A program made the translations under genes and the position numbers. The notes beneath the pieces are model-generated. The model did no database searches and was not told the DNA's origin. It worked only from the letters and a program-made list of their open reading frames with translations. Shown here piece by piece: positions 6,404-62,722 of a stretch of 64,000 bases of DNA; the stretch's first letter is position 1, and each line of letters begins with the position of its first letter. Origin of the DNA: Nitriliruptorales bacterium (GTDB lineage: Bacteria > Actinomycetota > Nitriliruptoria > Nitriliruptorales > JAHWKO01); assembly GCA_046263195.1 (NCBI GenBank), contig JBHELG010000084.1, positions 4,855-68,854 of the forward strand. The letters run 5' to 3'.

Positions 6404-6439
6404 CTGTCCCGCCCGCGGTCTTGGCCGAGCCTTGACCGC
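6404..6439. repeat. Short copy of the dispersed hairpin repeat family (reverse orientation)
   Basis: CTGTCCCGCCCGCGGTCTTGG (6404-6424) matches the reverse complement of the 3' end of the 19764 copy at 19 of 21 nt. Stem GCGGTC 6415-6420 / GACCGC 6434-6439. Confidence 0.7.
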
Positions 6440-6468
6440 TCGCAATTCGAAACGCGAAGGAGCGCACA

Positions 6469-18270: not shown

Positions 18271-18291
18271 ACTCCTTGTGCGGCAAGGAGT
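18271..18291 (+). terminator. Hairpin after etfA
   Basis: Perfect 8-bp stem ACTCCTTG / CAAGGAGT with a 5-nt loop, 6 nt after the stop. Confidence 0.5.
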
Positions 18292-18331
18292 CCTGTCAAG
18301 TGGGTGGGACTTATTCCGCGGGGAGCACCTG

Positions 18332-19756
18332 ATGAGCCGGCCGTGGGACCGGCGCAGCCTGCGTCAGCAGCAACGGGTGCAGAGCCTCGTCCTCCGCCAC
18401 TGGATGCCTGCAGCGGCGTCCTTCAGTTCCTTCTGGGGAGCCCACTTCGCGGCAGCCGGGGTAGACCCGGGAACGGTCGACTCCCCGGCGCGACTGAGGC
18501 AGATACCACCCGTCCGCGAGCGCGACATCCTCAACGCTGATGGACCAGGCGGCCCAGGGCTCTTGTTGCGCCCCACCGAGGACCAGGTGAAGGCACGTGC
18601 CAACCTGGCCACACTTTGGCACATCGCACGGGACATGCGCGGCGGGGGGACCGCCGGCAAGAGACTGGCGCTGCTCCGGGAGTACCAGCCGATCCACCTG
18701 CACCCGAGCGGCCGCGACGGCGAACTCATGATCGCGTACTCCCGGAGTGATCTCGACCGCTTCCATCGTCTCGGTGCTCGAGCTGCCGCAGTGCTGGGGC
18801 TCACTTCTTCCGATTATCTCGTTTCCGCTGTGCCTGCCGATGGCACCCTGGCCTTCTGGGGCGTCTACCACCTCGCGCTCGGAGCCTCCATCCTCGCCAT
18901 TCATGCGCGAGGAACCGGGCAGAGGCTCGAGATCGTGGCGCCCGCGTTCCGACTCGTGCCGGCTACGACCGTCGCTGTGCCCGTCGACGAAGCCGTCGCT
19001 CTGGCGGGCGCCCTCCGCCGGGCTGGAACTGAGCTCGAGCGGCTGACAACGGTGGTGCTCGTGGGTCCACCGCCGCCAAGGGTGGAGCGTGACCGGATCG
19101 CACAGGCGTGGCGGACAGCCGGGCCACCAGCGGGGGTCCGGGTCGTGGCCTTGTGGGCGCCGCCCGGAGGACGTGCCCTCTGGGCGGAATGTGCGGAGGG
19201 GGCCGCTACCGGGGAGGAGAGCGGGCTACACACCTACCCCGACCTCGAGGTGGTCGAGCTTCTCGACCCCGCGACCGGTCGGCCTGTCGCGGCAGGCGGA
19301 GACCTCACCTACACATCGGCCGGTTGGCATGGGACCGCACTGATCCGATACCAGACCGGGGACTATGCCGCCGGGCTCCGTACCGACCCCTGTACTGCCT
19401 GTGGCCGGACGGTGCCCCGTGTCCAGCCGGAGATCTCACCGGGCGCGTGGGAGCCGGAGCTGCGCAGCGGCGAGCGTTCCGTCAGGGTTGACCTGCGTGG
19501 CGCGGGGGCCGCACTGGCCGCAGACCCTGCCGTGGATGCGTGGCTGCTCGAGGTTCGGGGCCCGTCGGGCCGCCGATCCGGTGACGAGTATGTGGTCATG
19601 CTCGCCGGTCAGCTCGACAGGAAGCATCTCGTGGATCTGGATCGTCGTCTCGCGACTGCCGTGGGTCAGCCACCGCTCCAACTCATCGTCGCGGATCGCG
19701 AGGTTCTCGAGGCTGACATCGTCGAAGTTGGCGGTGCCTTCATCGACGCCCGCTGA
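18332..19756 (+). CDS. Phenylacetate-CoA ligase (PaaK)-like protein with degenerate catalytic motifs
   Basis: PaaK-like N-terminus (FAAAGVDP..LRQIP), AYSRSDL, GLH..DLEVVELLDP and LIRYQTGD. The SSGTTG loop is replaced by PSGRDG. Confidence 0.68.
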   Translation: MSRPWDRRSLRQQQRVQSLVLRHWMPAAASFSSFWGAHFAAAGVDPGTVDSPARLRQIPPVRERDILNADGPGGPGLLLRPTEDQVKARANLATLWHIARDMRGGGTAGKRLALLREYQPIHLHPSGRDGELMIAYSRSDLDRFHRLGARAAAVLGLTSSDYLVSAVPADGTLAFWGVYHLALGASILAIHARGTGQRLEIVAPAFRLVPATTVAVPVDEAVALAGALRRAGTELERLTTVVLVGPPPPRVERDRIAQAWRTAGPPAGVRVVALWAPPGGRALWAECAEGAATGEESGLHTYPDLEVVELLDPATGRPVAAGGDLTYTSAGWHGTALIRYQTGDYAAGLRTDPCTACGRTVPRVQPEISPGAWEPELRSGERSVRVDLRGAGAALAADPAVDAWLLEVRGPSGRRSGDEYVVMLAGQLDRKHLVDLDRRLATAVGQPPLQLIVADREVLEADIVEVGGAFIDAR

Positions 19757-19763
19757 CCTGGGT

Positions 19764-19844
19764 GGAAGGGCGGTCTCGGCTTGCCCGGGGAAGGGCCGCA
19801 GGCCCGGCGGGCGGGAGATGCAGGACCGCCGGCGGGACAGGTAG
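19764..19844. repeat. Long copy of the dispersed hairpin repeat family
   Basis: About 64 of 76 positions identical (by eye) to 62464-62540. Stem GGCGGTC / GACCGCC; tail GGCGGGACAGGTAG. Confidence 0.85.
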
Positions 19845-29197: not shown

Positions 29198-30096
29198 TCA
29201 GTCGGGTGGTGGTGGTGAACGTCGGAGGGGTGTTCCGCGTGGGAGGGAGGTCCAGGTGCGGCCGTTTCGGGTGATCGTGAACGCCCCGGTTTGGGGGTCG
29301 AGCCGCTGTTTCCAGTTGAGGTCGTGCACGAGCTTGTGCCAGCGGCGCAGCAGCAGGGTGAGCTGGTCGGGATGGTGGTCACCGTCGTCGGCCTGCTCGA
29401 CCACATGGTGAATGTCCGCCCACGGGGCGGGGCCGGTGGATCCGGGGAAGCGACAGCCCTTGTCCCGCGCTCGTACGGCTAGTCGGATGTCTGCGGGGAT
29501 GGCGGCGGCTTTGATTTTGGCGGACACGGCCAGGGGACGTGCCCCGTTGAACACCACGACCCGCAGGTCCCCATCCCGCGTGAGGGCTGCGACGGTGGCC
29601 GCACTCAGGGTGGGCACGACACCGGGAGCGGCCAGCTCCACCATCCCAGCCGCGGTCGCGGTGACGTTCGCCAGGTCGACGTGGGCGATGAGCAGGGGGC
29701 GGGCTCGACGGCGTCTGCCCCGCCCCCACCCATCCAGTCGGTGCAGATGCGCACCAGCCCCTGGGCACGCTGCCTCGCCCTCGGCGAACAGCATCTTCGT
29801 GACGGCACGCGTTCGAGCACCCGCCCCGCCTCCAGCAGCATACGAGCATCGGAAGAGACCATGCGGTGCTCGAGTGCCAGCAGCAGCTCCAGGGGCAGGC
29901 CTTCGATGACCTCGACCACACCGGCGCGCTGCACCTTGCCGGCCAGGTCCACCGCCTCCGCGGTGGCCCGCTGCATAACCCGTAGCGCATCCGAGAGCTC
30001 GGCCAGCAGCCCCGCACCCTCCGCCAGGCTCACCTCCCCCTCAGGTCGGCCGGCAGGCCGGGTTACCGGAGGCTCAGGAGTCGCAGCGCTTTTCAT
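29198..30096 (-). pseudogene. Decayed DUF222/HNH endonuclease gene (REP13E12/Rv1128c-like), internally deleted
   Basis: IRLAVRARDKGCRFPG, WADIHHV and LTLLLRRWHKLVH (Zn/HNH cysteines lost). QRAQGLVRIC segment in another frame; several indels between about 29700 and 29810. Confidence 0.8.
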
Positions 30097-31687: not shown

Positions 31688-33202
31688 ATGGAGCTCGTGA
31701 CGAAGAGCGCCACCGAGCTGGCGCGTCTGCTCGCGGCCCGGGAGATCACTGCGCGCGAGCTGGTCGATGTCCACCTCGAGCGCATCGCGGCCGTGGACGG
31801 GGAGTTGACGCATCCCGGCCAGCACGGCGTGCACGCCTTCCTCCATGTCGCAGCCGAGACGGCACGCGATCACGCCACTCGTGTCGATGAGCGCCGCGCC
31901 CGGGGCGACGAGCTCGGGGTCTTTGCGGGTGTCCCCCTCGCGTTGAAGGACGTGTTCAGCACCAAAGGCATGCCCACGACCTGCGGCTCGCGCATCCTCG
32001 AGGACTGGATCCCGCCGTACGACGCGACCATCGTGTTGCGCCTGCTCGCCGCCGACGTGGTGGTGCTCGGCAAGACGAACATGGACGAGTTCGCAATGGG
32101 CTCGTCAACGGAGAATTCAGCGTTCGGACCCACCCGCAACCCCTGGGACCTCGACCGCATCCCCGGTGGGTCCTCGGGGGGTTCGGCGGCGGCACTCGCA
32201 GGGCTCATGGCCCCCCTCGCGGTCGGAACCGACACGGGGGGGTCCATCCGCCAGCCCGCCGCCGTCACGGGGACGGTGGGTCTCAAGCCCACCTACGGTC
32301 GGGTGTCGCGCTACGGCCTGGTCGCCTTCGCCTCGAGCCTCGATCAAGCCGGTCCCATGGCCCGCACCGTGGAGGACACGGCCCTGCTCTACACGCTCAT
32401 CTCCGGTCACGACCCCCTCGACTCGACCTCCATCCCCAAATCGCCTGGCGACGTCCTGGGCAGCCTCCGCCGTGGGGTCGCAGACCTGCGCGTGGGAGTG
32501 GTCGGTGAGCTCGGAGGCGAGGGCTACGAGCCGGCCGTAGCGACCCGCTTCCGGGAGGCTCTGGAACGTCTCGCCGGCCTGGGAGCGGAGATCGTCGAGG
32601 TTTCGCTGCCCCATGCGCCGTACGGGCTGCCGGCCTATTACCTCATCGCCCCTTCGGAGGCTTCATCGAACCTTGCCCGCTATGACGGCGTCCGCTACGG
32701 ACTCCGGGTCGACGCCCCGACAGCCGAGGAGATGAACGCGTCGACCCGAGCTGCTGGTTTCGGCGACGAGGTGAAGCGCCGCATCATGATCGGAACCTAT
32801 GCCCTGTCAGCCGGCTACTACGACGCCTACTACGAGCAGGCGAGCCGGGTCCGCACCCTCATCCTCCGCGACTTCGAGACCGCCTTCACACAGGCCGATG
32901 TGCTCATGAGCCCCACTTCCCCCAACACCGCCTTTCTGATCGGGGACAAGGTTGACGACCCTCTCGCGATGTACCTCAACGACATCGCGACGGTCCCGGC
33001 CAACCTTGCCGGCGTGCCAGCCATCTCGATCCCCGCTGGGCTCGACGAGCGGGGCCTGCCGGTGGGCCTCCAGCTCATGGCCCCGGTCCTGCGGGAAGAT
33101 CTCCTGCTGCGTGCCGCCTGGGCCTTCGAGCAGGACCTAGCCTTCGACCCCGTCCCTCGAGGTGACAACGCCGTTCCCGTCCCGGCCGAGGTGGTCCCGT
33201 GA
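31688..33202 (+). CDS. gatA: Asp/Glu-tRNA amidotransferase subunit A
   Basis: [40 protein letters not shown] and [11 protein letters not shown]. Confidence 0.97.
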
Positions 33203-33272
33203 GCGGCGCTTCGGAGAAGCGCCGCGAAAGGAGCTGTCTTAGCTCCCCTGAGACAGCGACGGAGATGATCCG

Positions 33273-49297: not shown

Positions 49298-49314
49298 GTT
49301 CAGCGACCGGAGAT

Positions 49315-49360
49315 CTGTCCTATACACGGTCTTGGGCAATCCAAGACCGCTGGCCCGCCC
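49315..49360. repeat. Short copy of the dispersed hairpin repeat family (reverse orientation)
   Basis: CTGTCC-N6-CGGTCTTGG-GCAAT-CCAAGACCG-CTGGCCCGCCC; perfect 9-bp stem 49327-49349; same CTGTCC spacing as the 6404 copy. Confidence 0.75.
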
Positions 49361-49371
49361 AAGGAGGACCC

Positions 49372-51394: not shown

Positions 51395-51517
51395 GGGCTG
51401 GCCGAGCGGTCTTGCAGTGGGAGGGGCCTCGAGCGAGGAGCGGTGTTGGCTCCCCCAAGACCGGGAAAGCTGGACCAAGACCGGGACAAGCCTGATCAAG
51501 ACCGCAGCGGGACAAAA
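51395..51517. repeat. Expanded copy of the repeat family with three internal CAAGACCG direct repeats
   Basis: GCGGTCTTG 51406-51414 / CAAGACCGC 51497-51505, then GGGACAA. CAAGACCG at 51456, 51476 and 51497. Confidence 0.7.
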
Positions 51518-51829
51518 CTCCGCTCGGCTCGAACTCATGCGCCTTTTCTGACCCAATCAGGCGGGGTTTGGGAGAGTACTGGTCACGTTGCTCGTAAAAG
51601 GACTCCGAGTTGGAGTCACCGCAATGTCCGAAAATACCTTGCCTTGCCAGCACCGCATGTCTACCGTCCCAGGGGTGCCCAGGTCGGCTTTTCCGCGAAT
51701 GACCTCGTCGAGTAGCGAGGCGTTTCCGCCTGACGAGGTACCGCAAGGGACTCTACTCATTTTACGGGCTGATCTCCTTTGTCACCCTCCGCTGTCCGAA
51801 TGACCACCTCATCTATCTCTTGGGGCGAG

Positions 51830-52502: not shown

Positions 52503-54104
52503 GTGAGGGTCCTCGTTGCTGACCGCCTGTCCGAGGCAGGCGTCACCGCGCTCGCCTCCCGTCATGAGGTCGATGTGAAGACCGGTCTCACGAAGGAGGA
52601 GCTGGTCCACGTCGTCCCCGCCTACGACGCGGTGGTCGTGCGCTCGTCCACGACGATCGACTCTGATGTTGTGGCGGCCGGCACGAACCTCAAGGTGATC
52701 GCACGGGCCGGCATCGGACTGGACAACGTCGACCTGAACGCGGCCACCCGCGCCGGCATCATCGTCTGCAATGCCCCTCAGTCGAACATCGTCTCGGCAG
52801 CTGAGCACACCCTCGGGCTCCTGTTGGCGCTGGCCCGAAACATCCCACAAGCAGACGCTCAACTGCGTAGCGGCCGCTGGGATCGCAACCGCTGGAGCGG
52901 TACCGAGCTGCATGGGAAGACGCTGGGCGTGATCGGGCTGGGGCGGATCGGAGTGCTGGTAGCCCAGCGCTGCAACGCCTTCGGCATGCGACTCATGGCC
53001 TACGACCCCTACATCTCGGTCGAGCGGGCGGCGCGCATGGGCGTCGCACTCGTCGACGAACTCGACGATGTGCTCCGACAGGCGGACTTCGTCACGCTCC
53101 ATCTGCCGAAGACGTCCGAGACGATGGGTCTCATCGACCGCGAGCGGCTACGACTCATGAAGCCCACCGCCCGGCTCGTCAATGCCGCCCGGGGAGGGGT
53201 GATCGACGAAGACGCGCTCTACGAGGCCCTGCGCGACGGCATCATCGCGGGGGCGGCGCTCGACGTATTCTCGGTCGAGCCGCTCACGACGAGCCCGCTG
53301 TTCTCGCTCGACAACGTCGTGCTCACGCCCCACCTCGGCGCTTCAACCCAGGAGGCGCAGGACAAAGCCGGCATCCAGGTGGCCGAAGCCGTCAACCTCG
53401 CCCTCGCCGGTGAGTTCGTGCCTTCGGCGGTCAACGTACAAGGCGGGCCAGTCGACGACCTCGTGCGTCCCTTCCTGGGACTGGCCCACAAGCTCGGACG
53501 GCTCTTCACCGCTCTCTGTGAGGGTGGCTTCGGGGGCGAGGTCAGCGTCAGCTACGTCGGCGAGATCGCCGGCGCCGACAGCCGCCTGCTCGGCCTGGCG
53601 ATGCTGAATGGGCTACTCAGCGACGTGGTCCACGAGCCGGTGACGTTCGTGAACGCACCTCTGCTCGCCGAAGAGCGGGGCATCCACCTACGCGAGGTGA
53701 GTGAAACCCACAGCGAGGACTTTGTCTCGCTGCTGCGGGTCGAAGGAACCGATCGGGACGGCAAGCGGCTCCGAGTGGCTGGGACGGTGCTCCAGCCGGT
53801 GGGACGGGAGCGGATCGTGGAGGTATGGAACGTCCCCGTCGACGTGGAACCCACGCGCTACATGGCCTTCTTCCGCTACGAGGACCGTCCCGGCATCATC
53901 GGCACCGTGGGAACCATTCTCGGCGAAGGCGACGTGAACATCGCCAATATGCAGGTGGGCAGGTTGGCTGCTGGCGGCGAGGCGATCATGGTCATGTCCC
54001 TCGACCAGCCAGTCGGGCGTGACGTGCTCGACAAGATCGTGGCAGAGATCGGCGCCTTCGAGGCTCGCGCCATCACCCTCGACGAACACTCGGGGGCAGG
54101 CTGA
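52503..54104 (+). CDS. serA: D-3-phosphoglycerate dehydrogenase
   Basis: ARAGIGLDNVD, SAAEHT, GLGRIG, VNAARGG, TPHLGAST and a C-terminal ACT domain (DRPGIIG). Confidence 0.96.
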   Translation: MRVLVADRLSEAGVTALASRHEVDVKTGLTKEELVHVVPAYDAVVVRSSTTIDSDVVAAGTNLKVIARAGIGLDNVDLNAATRAGIIVCNAPQSNIVSAAEHTLGLLLALARNIPQADAQLRSGRWDRNRWSGTELHGKTLGVIGLGRIGVLVAQRCNAFGMRLMAYDPYISVERAARMGVALVDELDDVLRQADFVTLHLPKTSETMGLIDRERLRLMKPTARLVNAARGGVIDEDALYEALRDGIIAGAALDVFSVEPLTTSPLFSLDNVVLTPHLGASTQEAQDKAGIQVAEAVNLALAGEFVPSAVNVQGGPVDDLVRPFLGLAHKLGRLFTALCEGGFGGEVSVSYVGEIAGADSRLLGLAMLNGLLSDVVHEPVTFVNAPLLAEERGIHLREVSETHSEDFVSLLRVEGTDRDGKRLRVAGTVLQPVGRERIVEVWNVPVDVEPTRYMAFFRYEDRPGIIGTVGTILGEGDVNIANMQVGRLAAGGEAIMVMSLDQPVGRDVLDKIVAEIGAFEARAITLDEHSGAG

Positions 54105-54107
54105 ACC

Positions 54108-54124
54108 GCCAAGACCGCCCTCCC
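54108..54124. repeat. Half copy of the repeat family
   Basis: GCCAAGACCGCCCTCCC is the exact 17-nt reverse complement of 62464-62480. Confidence 0.75.
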
Positions 54125-62425: not shown

Positions 62426-62463
62426 GAGGTCTCCATTCGTCGCTGACGAACCAGCTTAAGGGC

Positions 62464-62540
62464 GGGAGGGCGGTCTTGGCTTGTCCGGGGAGGGCCGCAG
62501 GCCTGGAGGGCGGGGACAGACAAGGCCGCCGGCGGGACCA
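62464..62540. repeat. Long copy of the dispersed hairpin repeat family
   Basis: Homologous to 19764-19840. Stem GGCGGTCTTG / CAAGGCCGCC; tail GGCGGGACC. Confidence 0.85.
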
Positions 62541-62722
62541 TTGAAGGGCGGAGAGGACGGTCTCGGGCAGCCGCAGATGCACCTGAAGCCGGGTCGCCTC
62601 GACGGTCCGTTTCGCGGCGCTAGGCTCGCCGCATCGGTCGCGGGAGGTCCCCGCTCCCCTGGATCTCAGGTCACACGGCAGGTCGTGCTGCGAGCTGCCG
62701 AGCGCTAAGAGGAGGGACCGCG

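What the first reader, a model, noticed from the sequence alone, without database searches (positions are those of the whole stretch)
19764..19844. Unannotated dispersed hairpin repeat: about 77-nt element repeated 43 kb away with structure-preserving changes
Seen: 19764-19838 and 62464-62538 align at about 64 of 76 positions (by eye). Both fold into a long stem (GGCGGTC../..GACCGCC versus GGCGGTCTTG/CAAGGCCGCC), and the stem differences swap between U-A, U-G and mismatch states. Both share an inner GGCC-GCA-GGCC hairpin and a one-sided tail GGCGGGAC(AGGTAG). One copy lies between convergent genes, the other between divergent genes (bpa/pdhA), which argues against a simple terminator role. Established: REP/BIME elements are intergenic hairpins with a conserved motif at one foot (GTAG) and are spread by HUH (RAYT) transposases; MITEs are spread in trans. 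Inference: this is a lineage-specific REP-like/MITE or small structured-RNA family. No cognate transposase is in this window.
Basis: partly seen in the sequence, partly recalled or inferred. Interest (0 to 1): 0.75.

Follow-up and report, generated by a model that had tools for sequence, protein, structure and literature searches.

The report
Small mobile hairpin repeat, Rickettsia-like
The two 85-base look-alike sequences are copies of a small hairpin-forming repeat present about 90 times in this uncultured actinobacterial genome. It behaves like selfish mobile DNA, not like a functional RNA, and no enzyme that moves it could be found.

Summary
They belong to a dispersed repeat with about 86 confident copies in this 2.88-Mb genome: 33 long (about 85-87 nt) and 53 short (about 50 nt). 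The long form is the short hairpin unit plus a 36-nt G-rich module.

- **Distribution.** Among 143 genomes of the class and 185,579 species genomes, only this genome and two MAGs of a sister genus carry it.
- **Mobility.** The copy A site is empty in both sister-genus genomes. Twenty-nine of 34 element sites in those genomes have no element in the orthologous interval here. Copies are 76% intergenic, lie in both orientations, and some sit in frame inside genes such as argC and ribBA.
- **Against a functional RNA.** I found no orientation bias and no significant covariation. G·T and A·C mismatches are equally common in the stems. The element changes faster than its flanks between strains. It has no Rfam match and no terminator or promoter signature.
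- **Against REP/RAYT.** No Y1 (RAYT/IS200) transposase is present in any of nine family genomes.

Best reading: a lineage-specific, non-autonomous palindromic mobile element, closest to Rickettsia palindromic elements, with an unknown mobiliser. Earlier agents of this scan reported the same family elsewhere in this genome.

The parts
19759..19842 (+). Long-form copy A. Layout: 5' flank TGGGTGGAAG, outer stem GGCGGTCTC/GGACCGCC, the 36-nt G-rich module with the GGGCC-GCA-GGCCC hairpin, and the 3' tail GGCGGGACAGGTA. It fills almost the whole 92-nt spacer between two convergent stop codons.
   Evidence: (E = 6e-15). The orthologous spacer is only 16 nt in G008 and 18 nt in G003, with no element. 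A strain about 97% identical in soil metagenomes has the element at the same site.
62459..62542 (+). Long-form copy B in the divergent bpa-pdhA spacer. A degenerate 5' half-copy (GGGCGGAGAGGACGGTCTCGG, about 62547-62567) follows it.
   Evidence: (E = 2e-14). Metagenome contigs break inside the element.
6404..6442 (-). Short-form copy (hairpin unit without the 36-nt module), partly degenerate.
   Evidence: (E = 1.7e-6).
49314..49362 (-). Short-form copy: TTGGGCGGGCCAGCGGTCTTGGATTGCCCAAGACCGTGTATAGGACAGA.
   Evidence: (E = 6.5e-9). It is present in the related strain in metagenome contigs.
51400..51525 (+). Degenerate, expanded composite copy. The outer arms are AGCGGTCTTG ... CAAGACCGC-AGCGGGACAA, with triplicated CAAGACCG inside.
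54108..54124 (-). Solo 5' half of an element (GGCTGGGAGGGCGGTCTTGGC), next to the stop of gene 52503-54104.
33197..33272 (+). Related subfamily 'B/D' intercistronic repeat between an amidase (GatA-like) gene and gatB. The stop TGA lies inside GTGAGCG, two hairpins follow (the second is AGCTGTCTT/GAGACAGC), then GACGGAG lies before the ATG.

Best explanation
The two sequences are copies of a lineage-specific, modular, hairpin-forming, non-autonomous mobile DNA element.

**Anatomy.** The basic unit is about 50 nt: T(T/A)GGGYGGGAG-rGCGGTCTTGG-CTTGY-CCAAGACCGCs-GGCGGGACAA. It is a 10-bp GC-rich palindrome between two G-rich, non-palindromic flanks. The long form, which includes both window copies, carries an extra 36-nt G-rich module, GGGGAAGGGCCGCAGGCCCGGCGGGTGGGGAGATGC. 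The module is inserted two bases into the 3' arm.

**Shown.** Copies have been gained at new chromosomal sites since this genus and its sister genus split. They land in either orientation. Most sit in short intergenic spacers and a minority sit in frame inside genes. After insertion they decay like neutral DNA.

**Inferred.** The window's two copies are passive insertions: one between two convergent stop codons, one in a divergent promoter region. I found no evidence that either does anything for the flanking genes. The element is probably copied in trans by an enzyme that recognises the conserved flank-plus-hairpin sequence. The argument is that the consensus is nearly identical in both genera while individual copies drift.

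**Unknown.** That enzyme was not identified, and it is not a RAYT/IS200-type HUH transposase.
For: **Family size and shape.** There are 37 long-form nhmmer hits and 53 further short-form hits. The long loop is 45 nt against 9 nt in the short form, which gives the 36-nt module. The module is amplified in tandem on its own in G003, and a solo 36-nt module is present in G008 but absent in G000.

**Location.** 65 of 86 copies are intergenic, against 15% non-coding DNA (binomial p = 3e-36).

**Mobility.**
- The copy A site is empty in G003 and G008, and in the more distant relatives whose gene order is kept.
- The 87-nt argC insert is absent in seven relatives.
- Of 34 collinear element sites in G003/G008, only 5 have an element in the orthologous G000 interval. 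Length differences of 87, 87, 87, 86, 54, 51, 50 and 36 nt match element sizes.

**Restricted range.** The element is found in 3 of 143 class genomes, from 2 of 70 genera. Among 185,579 species genomes, only two Actinomycetota MAGs have multiple copies. There is no match in plasmids or phages.

**Conserved master sequence.** One G008 copy is 98% identical to the consensus built from G000 copies. G000 copies average 85% to that consensus. The one orthologous shared copy is 81% identical between the genera, about the same as its flanks at 79-86%.

**Neutral decay.**
- Between strains, 7 differences fall in about 80 nt of copy A, against 21 in about 920 nt of flank (my count).
- The shared G000/G008 copy has lost different stem pairs in each lineage.
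- G·T and A·C mismatches are balanced: 8 v 10, 3 v 2 and 16 v 11.

**Both orientations.** In co-directional spacers, 18 copies are sense and 23 antisense (p = 0.53). Inside called ORFs, 11 are sense and 6 antisense.
Against: - No mobilising enzyme was found. Y1_Tnp is absent. TnpB is found only in an element-free relative. IS110 is present in all nine genomes and is not adjacent to elements. The multi-copy DUF222 genes do not track the element. Genes flanked by two elements are housekeeping genes.
- There are no terminal inverted repeats beyond the internal palindrome.
- There is no consistent target-site duplication. One junction has a 14-nt duplication, one a possible 6-nt duplication, and one has none.
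- No insertion polymorphism was seen within the about 97% identical strain population. Current activity is therefore not shown.
- Mean pairwise identity of 80% suggests most copies are old.
- Lineage-specific precise deletion, instead of insertion, cannot be excluded for the sites that lack an outgroup.
- The gene calls behind the genome-wide statistics come from my own codon-usage caller. They are not a curated annotation.
Confidence: 0.75

Rival explanations
1. A true REP/REPIN family, mobilised by a RAYT (HUH Y1) transposase that recognises the hairpin and a GTAG-like foot on single-stranded DNA. The RAYT gene would simply be missing from these incomplete MAGs.
For: The short unit is about 50 nt including flanks, within the published REP range of 21-65 bp (PMC3184786). 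Copies are intergenic, hairpin-forming and often in tandem clusters. Subfamily C has GTCGTAGT directly 5' of the palindrome in about 8 copies. The three element-bearing genomes are 96%, 70% and 59% complete.
Against: PF01797 found nothing in G000, which is 95.6% complete, or in any of eight family relatives. The same search rang in 6 control genomes. The main subfamily has GGGYGGGAG, not GTAG, and the GTAG of subfamily C varies (GGAGT, GCAGT). No gene in G000 is flanked by inverted copies in the RAYT arrangement. In-frame genic insertions in both orientations are not typical of REPs.
Confidence: 0.07
2. A functional structured RNA, or RNA-level cis element, carried by many transcripts. Examples would be an sRNA, an mRNA 3'-end stabiliser, or a U-tract-less terminator.
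For: The G-rich strand folds more stably than its complement as RNA: -38.4 v -31.5 and -37.7 v -27.4 kcal/mol. The mid helix CTTGCCC/GGGYGGG pairs only on the G-rich strand, with 68 G·U cells against 1 A·C. Many copies lie within 3-25 nt of a stop codon. REPs are described as multifunctional elements, with work on post-transcriptional control of an operon (PMC3184786).
Against: Folding energies are no better than shuffles for the long copies (z from +0.04 to -0.92). RNAalifold gives a covariation term of 0 and drops the outer stem. Five pairs show double changes, against 3.6 in shuffles. There is no orientation bias relative to transcription. There is no Rfam match and no terminator-like or promoter-like site. 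Copies evolve faster than their flanks, and only about 15% of sites are conserved between genera. The excess of G·U in the mid helix follows from the module's G-richness. It is not evidence of selection.
Confidence: 0.08
3. Dispersed binding or structural sites that the host has put to use. Examples are a site for a nucleoid-associated protein or gyrase, as with BIMEs, or a G-quadruplex-forming signal. Under this reading mobility is only how the sites spread.
For: The G-rich flanks and the module hold many G3+ tracts. The G4Hunter score of the 36-nt module is 1.25. The consensus is conserved across two genera. The flanks GGGYGGGAG and GGCGGGAC are conserved although they do not pair.
Against: Positions are not conserved between genera. 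Individual copies decay. No candidate binding protein or experiment is available. A G4Hunter score of 1.25 is borderline. Conservation of the consensus is equally well explained by the needs of the copying machinery.
Confidence: 0.07

Closest known systems
Rickettsia palindromic elements (RPE; Ogata et al. 2000, as summarised in PMC10969869 and PMC3184786)
   Same: Small palindromic dispersed repeats with tens of copies per genome. They occur both between genes and in frame inside unrelated housekeeping genes, where they are read through as extra peptide. Their mobiliser is unknown and they are restricted to one lineage.
   Different: RPEs are about 105-150 bp and occur in AT-rich, obligately intracellular alpha-proteobacteria. 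This family is 50-87 nt and about 75% G+C. It is built from separable modules (hairpin unit plus 36-nt module, nested copies, tandem arrays). It lives in a free-living soil actinobacterial lineage. There is no sequence similarity.
REP/BIME elements and REPINs with RAYT transposases (PMC3184786)
   Same: A short GC-rich imperfect palindrome with a conserved non-palindromic foot. Copies are intergenic, often clustered or in tandem, and number in the tens to hundreds.
   Different: No RAYT or Y1 transposase is present in nine genomes. The main subfamily has no conserved GTAG. Genic in-frame copies occur. The flanks are G-rich direct-repeat-like (GGGYGGGA ... GGCGGGA), not a tetranucleotide.
Bacterial MITEs (e.g. 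Correia, ERIC, Chunjie; PMC10969869)
   Same: Non-autonomous, dispersed and mostly intergenic. They show filled and empty sites between relatives and are variable in size through internal deletions or insertions.
   Different: Typical MITEs have terminal inverted repeats matching a parent IS, and a fixed target-site duplication. Here the inverted repeat is internal, the termini are not inverted, no parent IS was found, and the duplications are inconsistent.
Mycobacterial interspersed repetitive units (MIRU; Supply et al. 1997, as summarised in PMC3184786)
   Same: Actinobacterial repeats of 40-100 bp with about 40-50 copies, G-C-rich internal inverted repeats and tandem arrays. The related B/D subfamily here sits between cistrons, overlapping the upstream stop and supplying an SD-like GGAG before the next start.
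   Different: There is no sequence similarity. The family A copies of this finding are not confined to operons, occur in both orientations, and occur inside genes.

Membership tests
REP/REPIN-RAYT system | A cognate RAYT (Y1 HUH transposase, Pfam PF01797) in the genome, usually flanked by inverted REPs | tested here: not met
   PF01797 found 0 of 9 family genomes, while 6 control genomes were positive. Genes flanked by two elements are nuoM, relA and nadBA.
REP/REPIN-RAYT system | Conserved GTAG-type tetranucleotide at the 5' foot of the palindrome | tested here: not met
   The main subfamily, including both window copies, has GGGYGGGAG at the 5' foot. Only the minor subfamily C has GTCGTAGT, and that varies.
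REP/REPIN-RAYT system | Short extragenic imperfect palindrome in many dispersed copies | tested here: met
   10-bp stem, about 86 copies, 76% intergenic.
MITE | Terminal inverted repeats related to those of an autonomous IS in the same or a related genome | tested here: not met
   The termini TTGGGYGGGAG and GGCGGGACAAGT are not inverted repeats. The only multi-copy genes are of the DUF222 type, with unrelated ends. The three IS110 copies are not associated with elements.
MITE | Fixed-length target-site duplication | tested here: inconclusive
   Four filled/empty junctions give 14 nt, about 6 nt, none, and one that cannot be read. Intergenic divergence between genera limits the precision.
MITE | Filled versus empty orthologous sites (mobility) | tested here: met
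   Copy A and argC are empty in relatives. 29 of 34 sites in G003/G008 have no element in the orthologous G000 interval.
Rickettsia palindromic element-like (by behaviour) | Palindromic repeat found in frame inside unrelated protein-coding genes, without breaking the frame, as well as in spacers | tested here: met
   Elsewhere in the genome, in-frame copies sit in argC (87-nt insert, antisense), ribBA, an ABC transporter, a 1762-aa STAND-like protein and a membrane protein. No copy in this window is genic.
Rickettsia palindromic element-like (by behaviour) | Sequence homology to RPE families | not tested
   No RPE sequences were compared. The composition (about 75% G+C against AT-rich RPEs) makes homology implausible. 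This is an analogy only.
Structured non-coding RNA family (Rfam-type) | Significant covariation supporting a conserved secondary structure, and a consistent transcribed strand | tested here: not met
   Covariation term is 0. Five double-change pairs against 3.6 in shuffles. G·T roughly equals A·C. 18 sense v 23 antisense. No Rfam match.
Intrinsic terminator | GC-rich hairpin followed by a T/U run | tested here: not met
   No terminator-like site at either copy. The tails are GGCGGGAC on one strand and CTCCCACCC on the other.

The most novel reading that the evidence does not exclude
The family is a new kind of transposase-orphan, modular 'hairpin-in-hairpin' mobile element. Three features point that way.
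- A 36-nt, G-quadruplex-prone module is mobile in its own right. It occurs as a solo insertion and in tandem arrays, and it sits at the same position in three different outer-arm subfamilies.
- Units nest preferentially inside the arms or loops of existing hairpins.
- The sequence is stop-free in all six frames, and typical insert sizes are 36, 51 and 87 nt. It can therefore colonise coding sequence in either orientation.

Under this reading, mobilisation would use an enzyme class not yet linked to small palindromic repeats, or a template-switch or gap-repair route seeded by the GGGYGGG flank. That motif is already present at two empty sites.
Probability: 0.15. Interest if true: 0.8.

Novelty: new variant of a known kind. 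Interest (0 to 1): 0.5.

Why it matters
Small palindromic repeats that survive inside genes are known mainly from Rickettsia. How they move is still unknown. A second, unrelated family with the same habit, in a free-living, GC-rich actinobacterial lineage, shows the phenomenon is not a quirk of reduced intracellular genomes. This family also offers useful handles: separable modules, two genera with mostly different insertion sites, and no RAYT. These make it a cleaner system for asking which enzyme or repair pathway copies such elements.

On the practical side, the repeats break metagenome contigs. They also add 25-45 residue loops to housekeeping proteins. Annotators should recognise those loops and not read them as novel domains.

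For this window specifically, the two copies look like inert passengers.

Tried and rejected
- **Rfam.** The gathering-threshold search of the whole window and the E-value search around copy A gave nothing meaningful.
- **Candidate mobilisers.** Y1_Tnp/RAYT is absent in all nine family genomes. TnpB (PF07282) occurs only in element-free G001. IS110 (PF01548) is in all nine genomes, and the three G000 copies are not near elements. The two multi-copy gene families of G000 (about 400 aa; one matches Pfam DUF222, and I read an HNH-like motif in both by eye) are not adjacent to elements. They have unrelated conserved ends, and their counts do not track the element across genomes. No gene flanked by two elements is a transposase.
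- **Population polymorphism.** Four soil-metagenome runs hold a strain about 97% identical, at 3-5x depth. The elements are present at the same sites and no empty-site joints were seen. This shows no current activity, but the depth is too low to exclude it.
- **RNA evidence.** No RNA run holds the stretch.
- **Replication-strand bias.** The GC skew of the window is flat and uninformative.
- **Plasmid and phage origin.** No match.
- **Earlier claim that every unit length is a multiple of three.** Insert sizes of 36, 51, 54, 87, 96 and 111 nt fit, but 50 and 86 do not. Intergenic tandem periods are 46, 48, 50, 50, 50, 53 and 53 nt. The claim is only partly borne out.
- **Six-frame openness as an adaptation.** The consensus has no stop in any frame. 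Copies are more often stop-free than shuffles: 39% and 72% against 10-12%. Because the copies share ancestry, this is roughly one observation with p of about 0.1.
- **Gene callers.** My first two GC3-based gene callers mis-called the region around copy A. I replaced them with a codon-usage caller.

Full report
**1. The observation**

Window 19759-19842 and 62459-62542 are clearly related. Both copies have four parts:
- a G-rich 5' flank, GGG(T/C)GG(A/G)AG;
- an outer stem, GGCGGTCT(C/T)/…GACCGCC or GGCCGCC;
- an inner GGGCC-GCA-GGCC(C/T) hairpin;
- the 3' tail GGCGGGAC.

The window is contig C84:4855-68854 of a 2.88-Mb, 67% G+C, 157-contig genome. Bpa (PF10759) beside copy B, and the titles of the only related records ("MAG: Actinomycetota bacterium"), place it in the Actinomycetota. 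Earlier agents of this scan call it Nitriliruptorales. I did not verify that.

**2. A genome-wide family with a modular build**

An iterated nhmmer profile of the two copies finds 37 hits in the genome, 33 of them at E < 1e-7.

A second, shorter form is even commoner. Its unit is T(T/A)GGGYGGGAG-rGCGGTCTTGG-CTTGY-CCAAGACCGCs-GGCGGGACAA, about 50 nt. It often lies in tandem arrays with periods of 46-53 nt, most often 50.

The long form is this unit with 36 extra bases, GGGGAAGGGCCGCAGGCCCGGCGGGTGGGGAGATGC, between ...GGCTTGCCC and AAGACC.... The loop is 45 nt instead of 9.

There are also sister subfamilies with the same or a compensated stem and different flanks:
- Subfamily B has GAGAGG-AGCTGTCTT...GAGACAGC-GACGGAG. 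Its stem differs from GCGGTCTT/AAGACCGC by a compensated G-C to T-A change.
- Subfamily C has GTCGTAGT...GACGGAGGCGGGAGGG.

Copies are sometimes nested inside one another.

In the sister genus the 36-nt module is repeated in tandem on its own. At one site it is present as a solo 36-nt insert that G000 lacks.

Besides the two long copies, the window holds:
- two short copies (6404-6442 and 49314-49362, both on the minus strand);
- a degenerate expanded copy (about 51400-51525);
- a solo 5' half (54108-54124);
- a B/D-type intercistronic copy between an amidase (GatA-like) gene and gatB (33197-33272).

**3. Where copies lie**

With a codon-usage gene caller that I trained on the genome (2780 calls, 85% coverage), 65 of 86 confident copies are intergenic, against 15% non-coding DNA (p = 3e-36).

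Orientation is unbiased. In spacers between co-directional genes, 18 copies are sense and 23 antisense (p = 0.53). Twenty lie between divergent genes and 8 between convergent genes.

Seventeen copies fall inside called ORFs. At least five of these are unmistakable in-frame insertions in real genes: ribBA, argC, an ABC transporter, a 1762-aa STAND-like protein and a membrane protein. For argC, the 29-residue (87-nt) insert is missing in all seven relatives that have the gene region. I found this independently. It matches what earlier agents reported for another window of this genome.

**4. Evidence for mobility, including in this window**

Copy A fills a 92-nt spacer between two convergent stop codons. 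In G008 and G003 the same two genes are 16 and 18 nt apart, with no element. These are the two sister-genus genomes, and both carry the family elsewhere.

I also ran the reverse test. I mapped 34 element sites of G003/G008, through their flanking coding sequence, onto this genome. Only 5 have an element in the orthologous interval. At most of the others the G000 interval is shorter, and where the junction could be aligned the difference matches an element size: 87, 87, 87, 86, 54, 51, 50 and 36 nt.

One shared site (G000 C131:9252-9336, matching G008 locus L009) shows an insertion older than the split. Its two copies are 81% identical, about the same as their flanks (79-86%). They have lost different stem pairs.

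The family is confined to this genus and one sister genus:
- 3 of 143 genomes of the class, from 2 of 70 genera;
- only two MAGs with multiple hits among 185,579 species genomes;
- nothing in plasmids or phages.

The consensus built from G000 copies matches one G008 copy at 98%. G000 copies themselves average 85% to the consensus and 80% to each other. So the source sequence has been kept the same in both genera while individual copies drift. That is what one expects if the copying machinery reads the sequence.

**5. Evidence against a functional RNA or a terminator**

- As RNA, the long copies fold no better than dinucleotide shuffles (z from +0.04 to -0.92). The same holds as DNA. Only the short unit's 10-bp hairpin stands out (z = -3 to -4, on both strands).
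- On 31 long copies, my three-helix model is 86% paired. Five pairs have double changes, against 3.6 in shuffles, and the covariation score is not convincing. RNAalifold gives a covariation term of zero and does not even keep the outer stem.
Family-wide, however, G·T mismatches (tolerated on the G-rich strand) are no commoner than A·C mismatches (tolerated only on the other strand). The counts are 8 v 10 in the outer stem, 3 v 2 in the apical stem, and 16 v 11 in short copies.
- Between this assembly and a strain about 97% identical in soil metagenomes, copy A carries 7 differences in about 80 nt, against 21 in the other about 920 nt. None of them is compensatory (with positions worked out).
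- There is no Rfam match and no promoter-like or terminator-like site. No RNA data were available.

**6. What moves it**

I could not find out.
- PF01797 (RAYT/IS200 TnpA) is absent from all nine genomes of the family, with positive controls.
- TnpB is found only in an element-free relative.
- IS110 is in all nine genomes and is not next to elements.
- The only multi-copy genes in G000 are two families of about 400 aa. One matches Pfam DUF222, and I read an HNH-like motif in both by eye. They are not adjacent to elements and do not track them across genomes.
- Genes bracketed by two elements are nuoM, relA and nadBA.

The junctions are inconsistent. One is a 50-nt insert with a 14-nt direct duplication, AGACAG(Y)GGGTGGG, whose empty site already contains GGGTGGG. 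Another empty site holds CCCACC. One junction has a possible 6-nt duplication. One clean 85-87-nt insert has none. MAG assemblies tend to lose multi-copy IS elements, so absence of a mobiliser is weak evidence. Still, a classical REP/RAYT or IS-derived MITE origin has no support.

**7. Comparison with known families**

By behaviour, the closest known family is the Rickettsia palindromic elements. Those are palindromic repeats found both in spacers and in frame in unrelated genes, with an unknown mobiliser (PMC10969869, PMC3184786). By size and shape the short unit resembles REPs, but two defining REP features fail here (RAYT and GTAG). It shares filled and empty sites with MITEs, but it lacks terminal inverted repeats and a parent IS. 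The related B/D subfamily has a MIRU-like intercistronic layout (PMC3184786).

I therefore class it as a new variant of a known kind: small non-autonomous palindromic repeats. It is not a member of REP/RAYT, MITE or RPE in the strict sense.

**8. Verdict**

The "REP-like/MITE" reading is supported in the broad sense. The "structured RNA" and "RAYT" parts are not. The two window copies are most likely inert insertions.

The family as a whole is moderately interesting, for four reasons: RPE-like behaviour in a free-living, high-GC actinobacterial lineage; a modular build; a separately mobile 36-nt module; and no known mobiliser. It has already been described by earlier agents of this scan from another window. 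This window adds:
- an intergenic empty-site proof;
- the genome-wide and class-wide statistics;
- the 34-site shared/unique test;
- the mismatch-symmetry test;
- negative tests of several candidate mobilisers.

Noticed in passing
window 33197-33272 (+); about 20 copies genome-wide (e.g. C39, C29, C63, C132): A composite intercistronic repeat with a fixed layout. The upstream gene's stop TGA lies inside GTGAGCGGCGC. Two hairpins follow, then GACGGAG (SD-like) lies 6-9 nt before the next gene's ATG/GTG, which is often followed by AGC. Here it sits between an amidase (GatA-like) gene and gatB. The design resembles MIRUs, and family A elements are often nested in its second hairpin.
   Followed up: partly
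window 29198-30063 (-); G000 contigs C115, C56, C53, C31, C84:77621-78877 and others: Two multi-copy gene families of about 400 aa, with about 21 and 20 matching pieces in this genome. One matches Pfam DUF222, and both show an HNH-like motif by eye. Many copies have in-frame stops. Copies share a conserved upstream CTTTTCCACA...AACGTATGTTC leader. They are the only highly repeated genes in the assembly and are not linked to the hairpin elements.
   Followed up: partly
G003 locus L093:900-1007; also L090, L097, L100, L102: In the sister genus, the 36-nt G-rich module alone is repeated two or three times head to tail. In some places it has no outer hairpin arms.
   Followed up: partly
G008 locus L075:902-947 against G000 C40:54883-54891: A clean filled/empty pair. 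The 50-nt short unit is flanked by a 14-nt direct duplication, AGACAG(Y)GGGTGGG, and the empty site already carries the element's own 5' motif GGGTGGG. This hints at homology-guided insertion or deletion.
   Followed up: partly
window 18278-19756 (+): A 492-aa ORF upstream of copy A with no Pfam hit. It is conserved in all nine family genomes (51-78% identity). By eye it resembles adenylate-forming (PaaK/F390-synthetase-like) enzymes.
   Followed up: no
window 62547-62567 (+): A degenerate second 5' half-element, GGGCGGAGAGGACGGTCTCGG, directly after copy B in the bpa-pdhA spacer.
   Followed up: no
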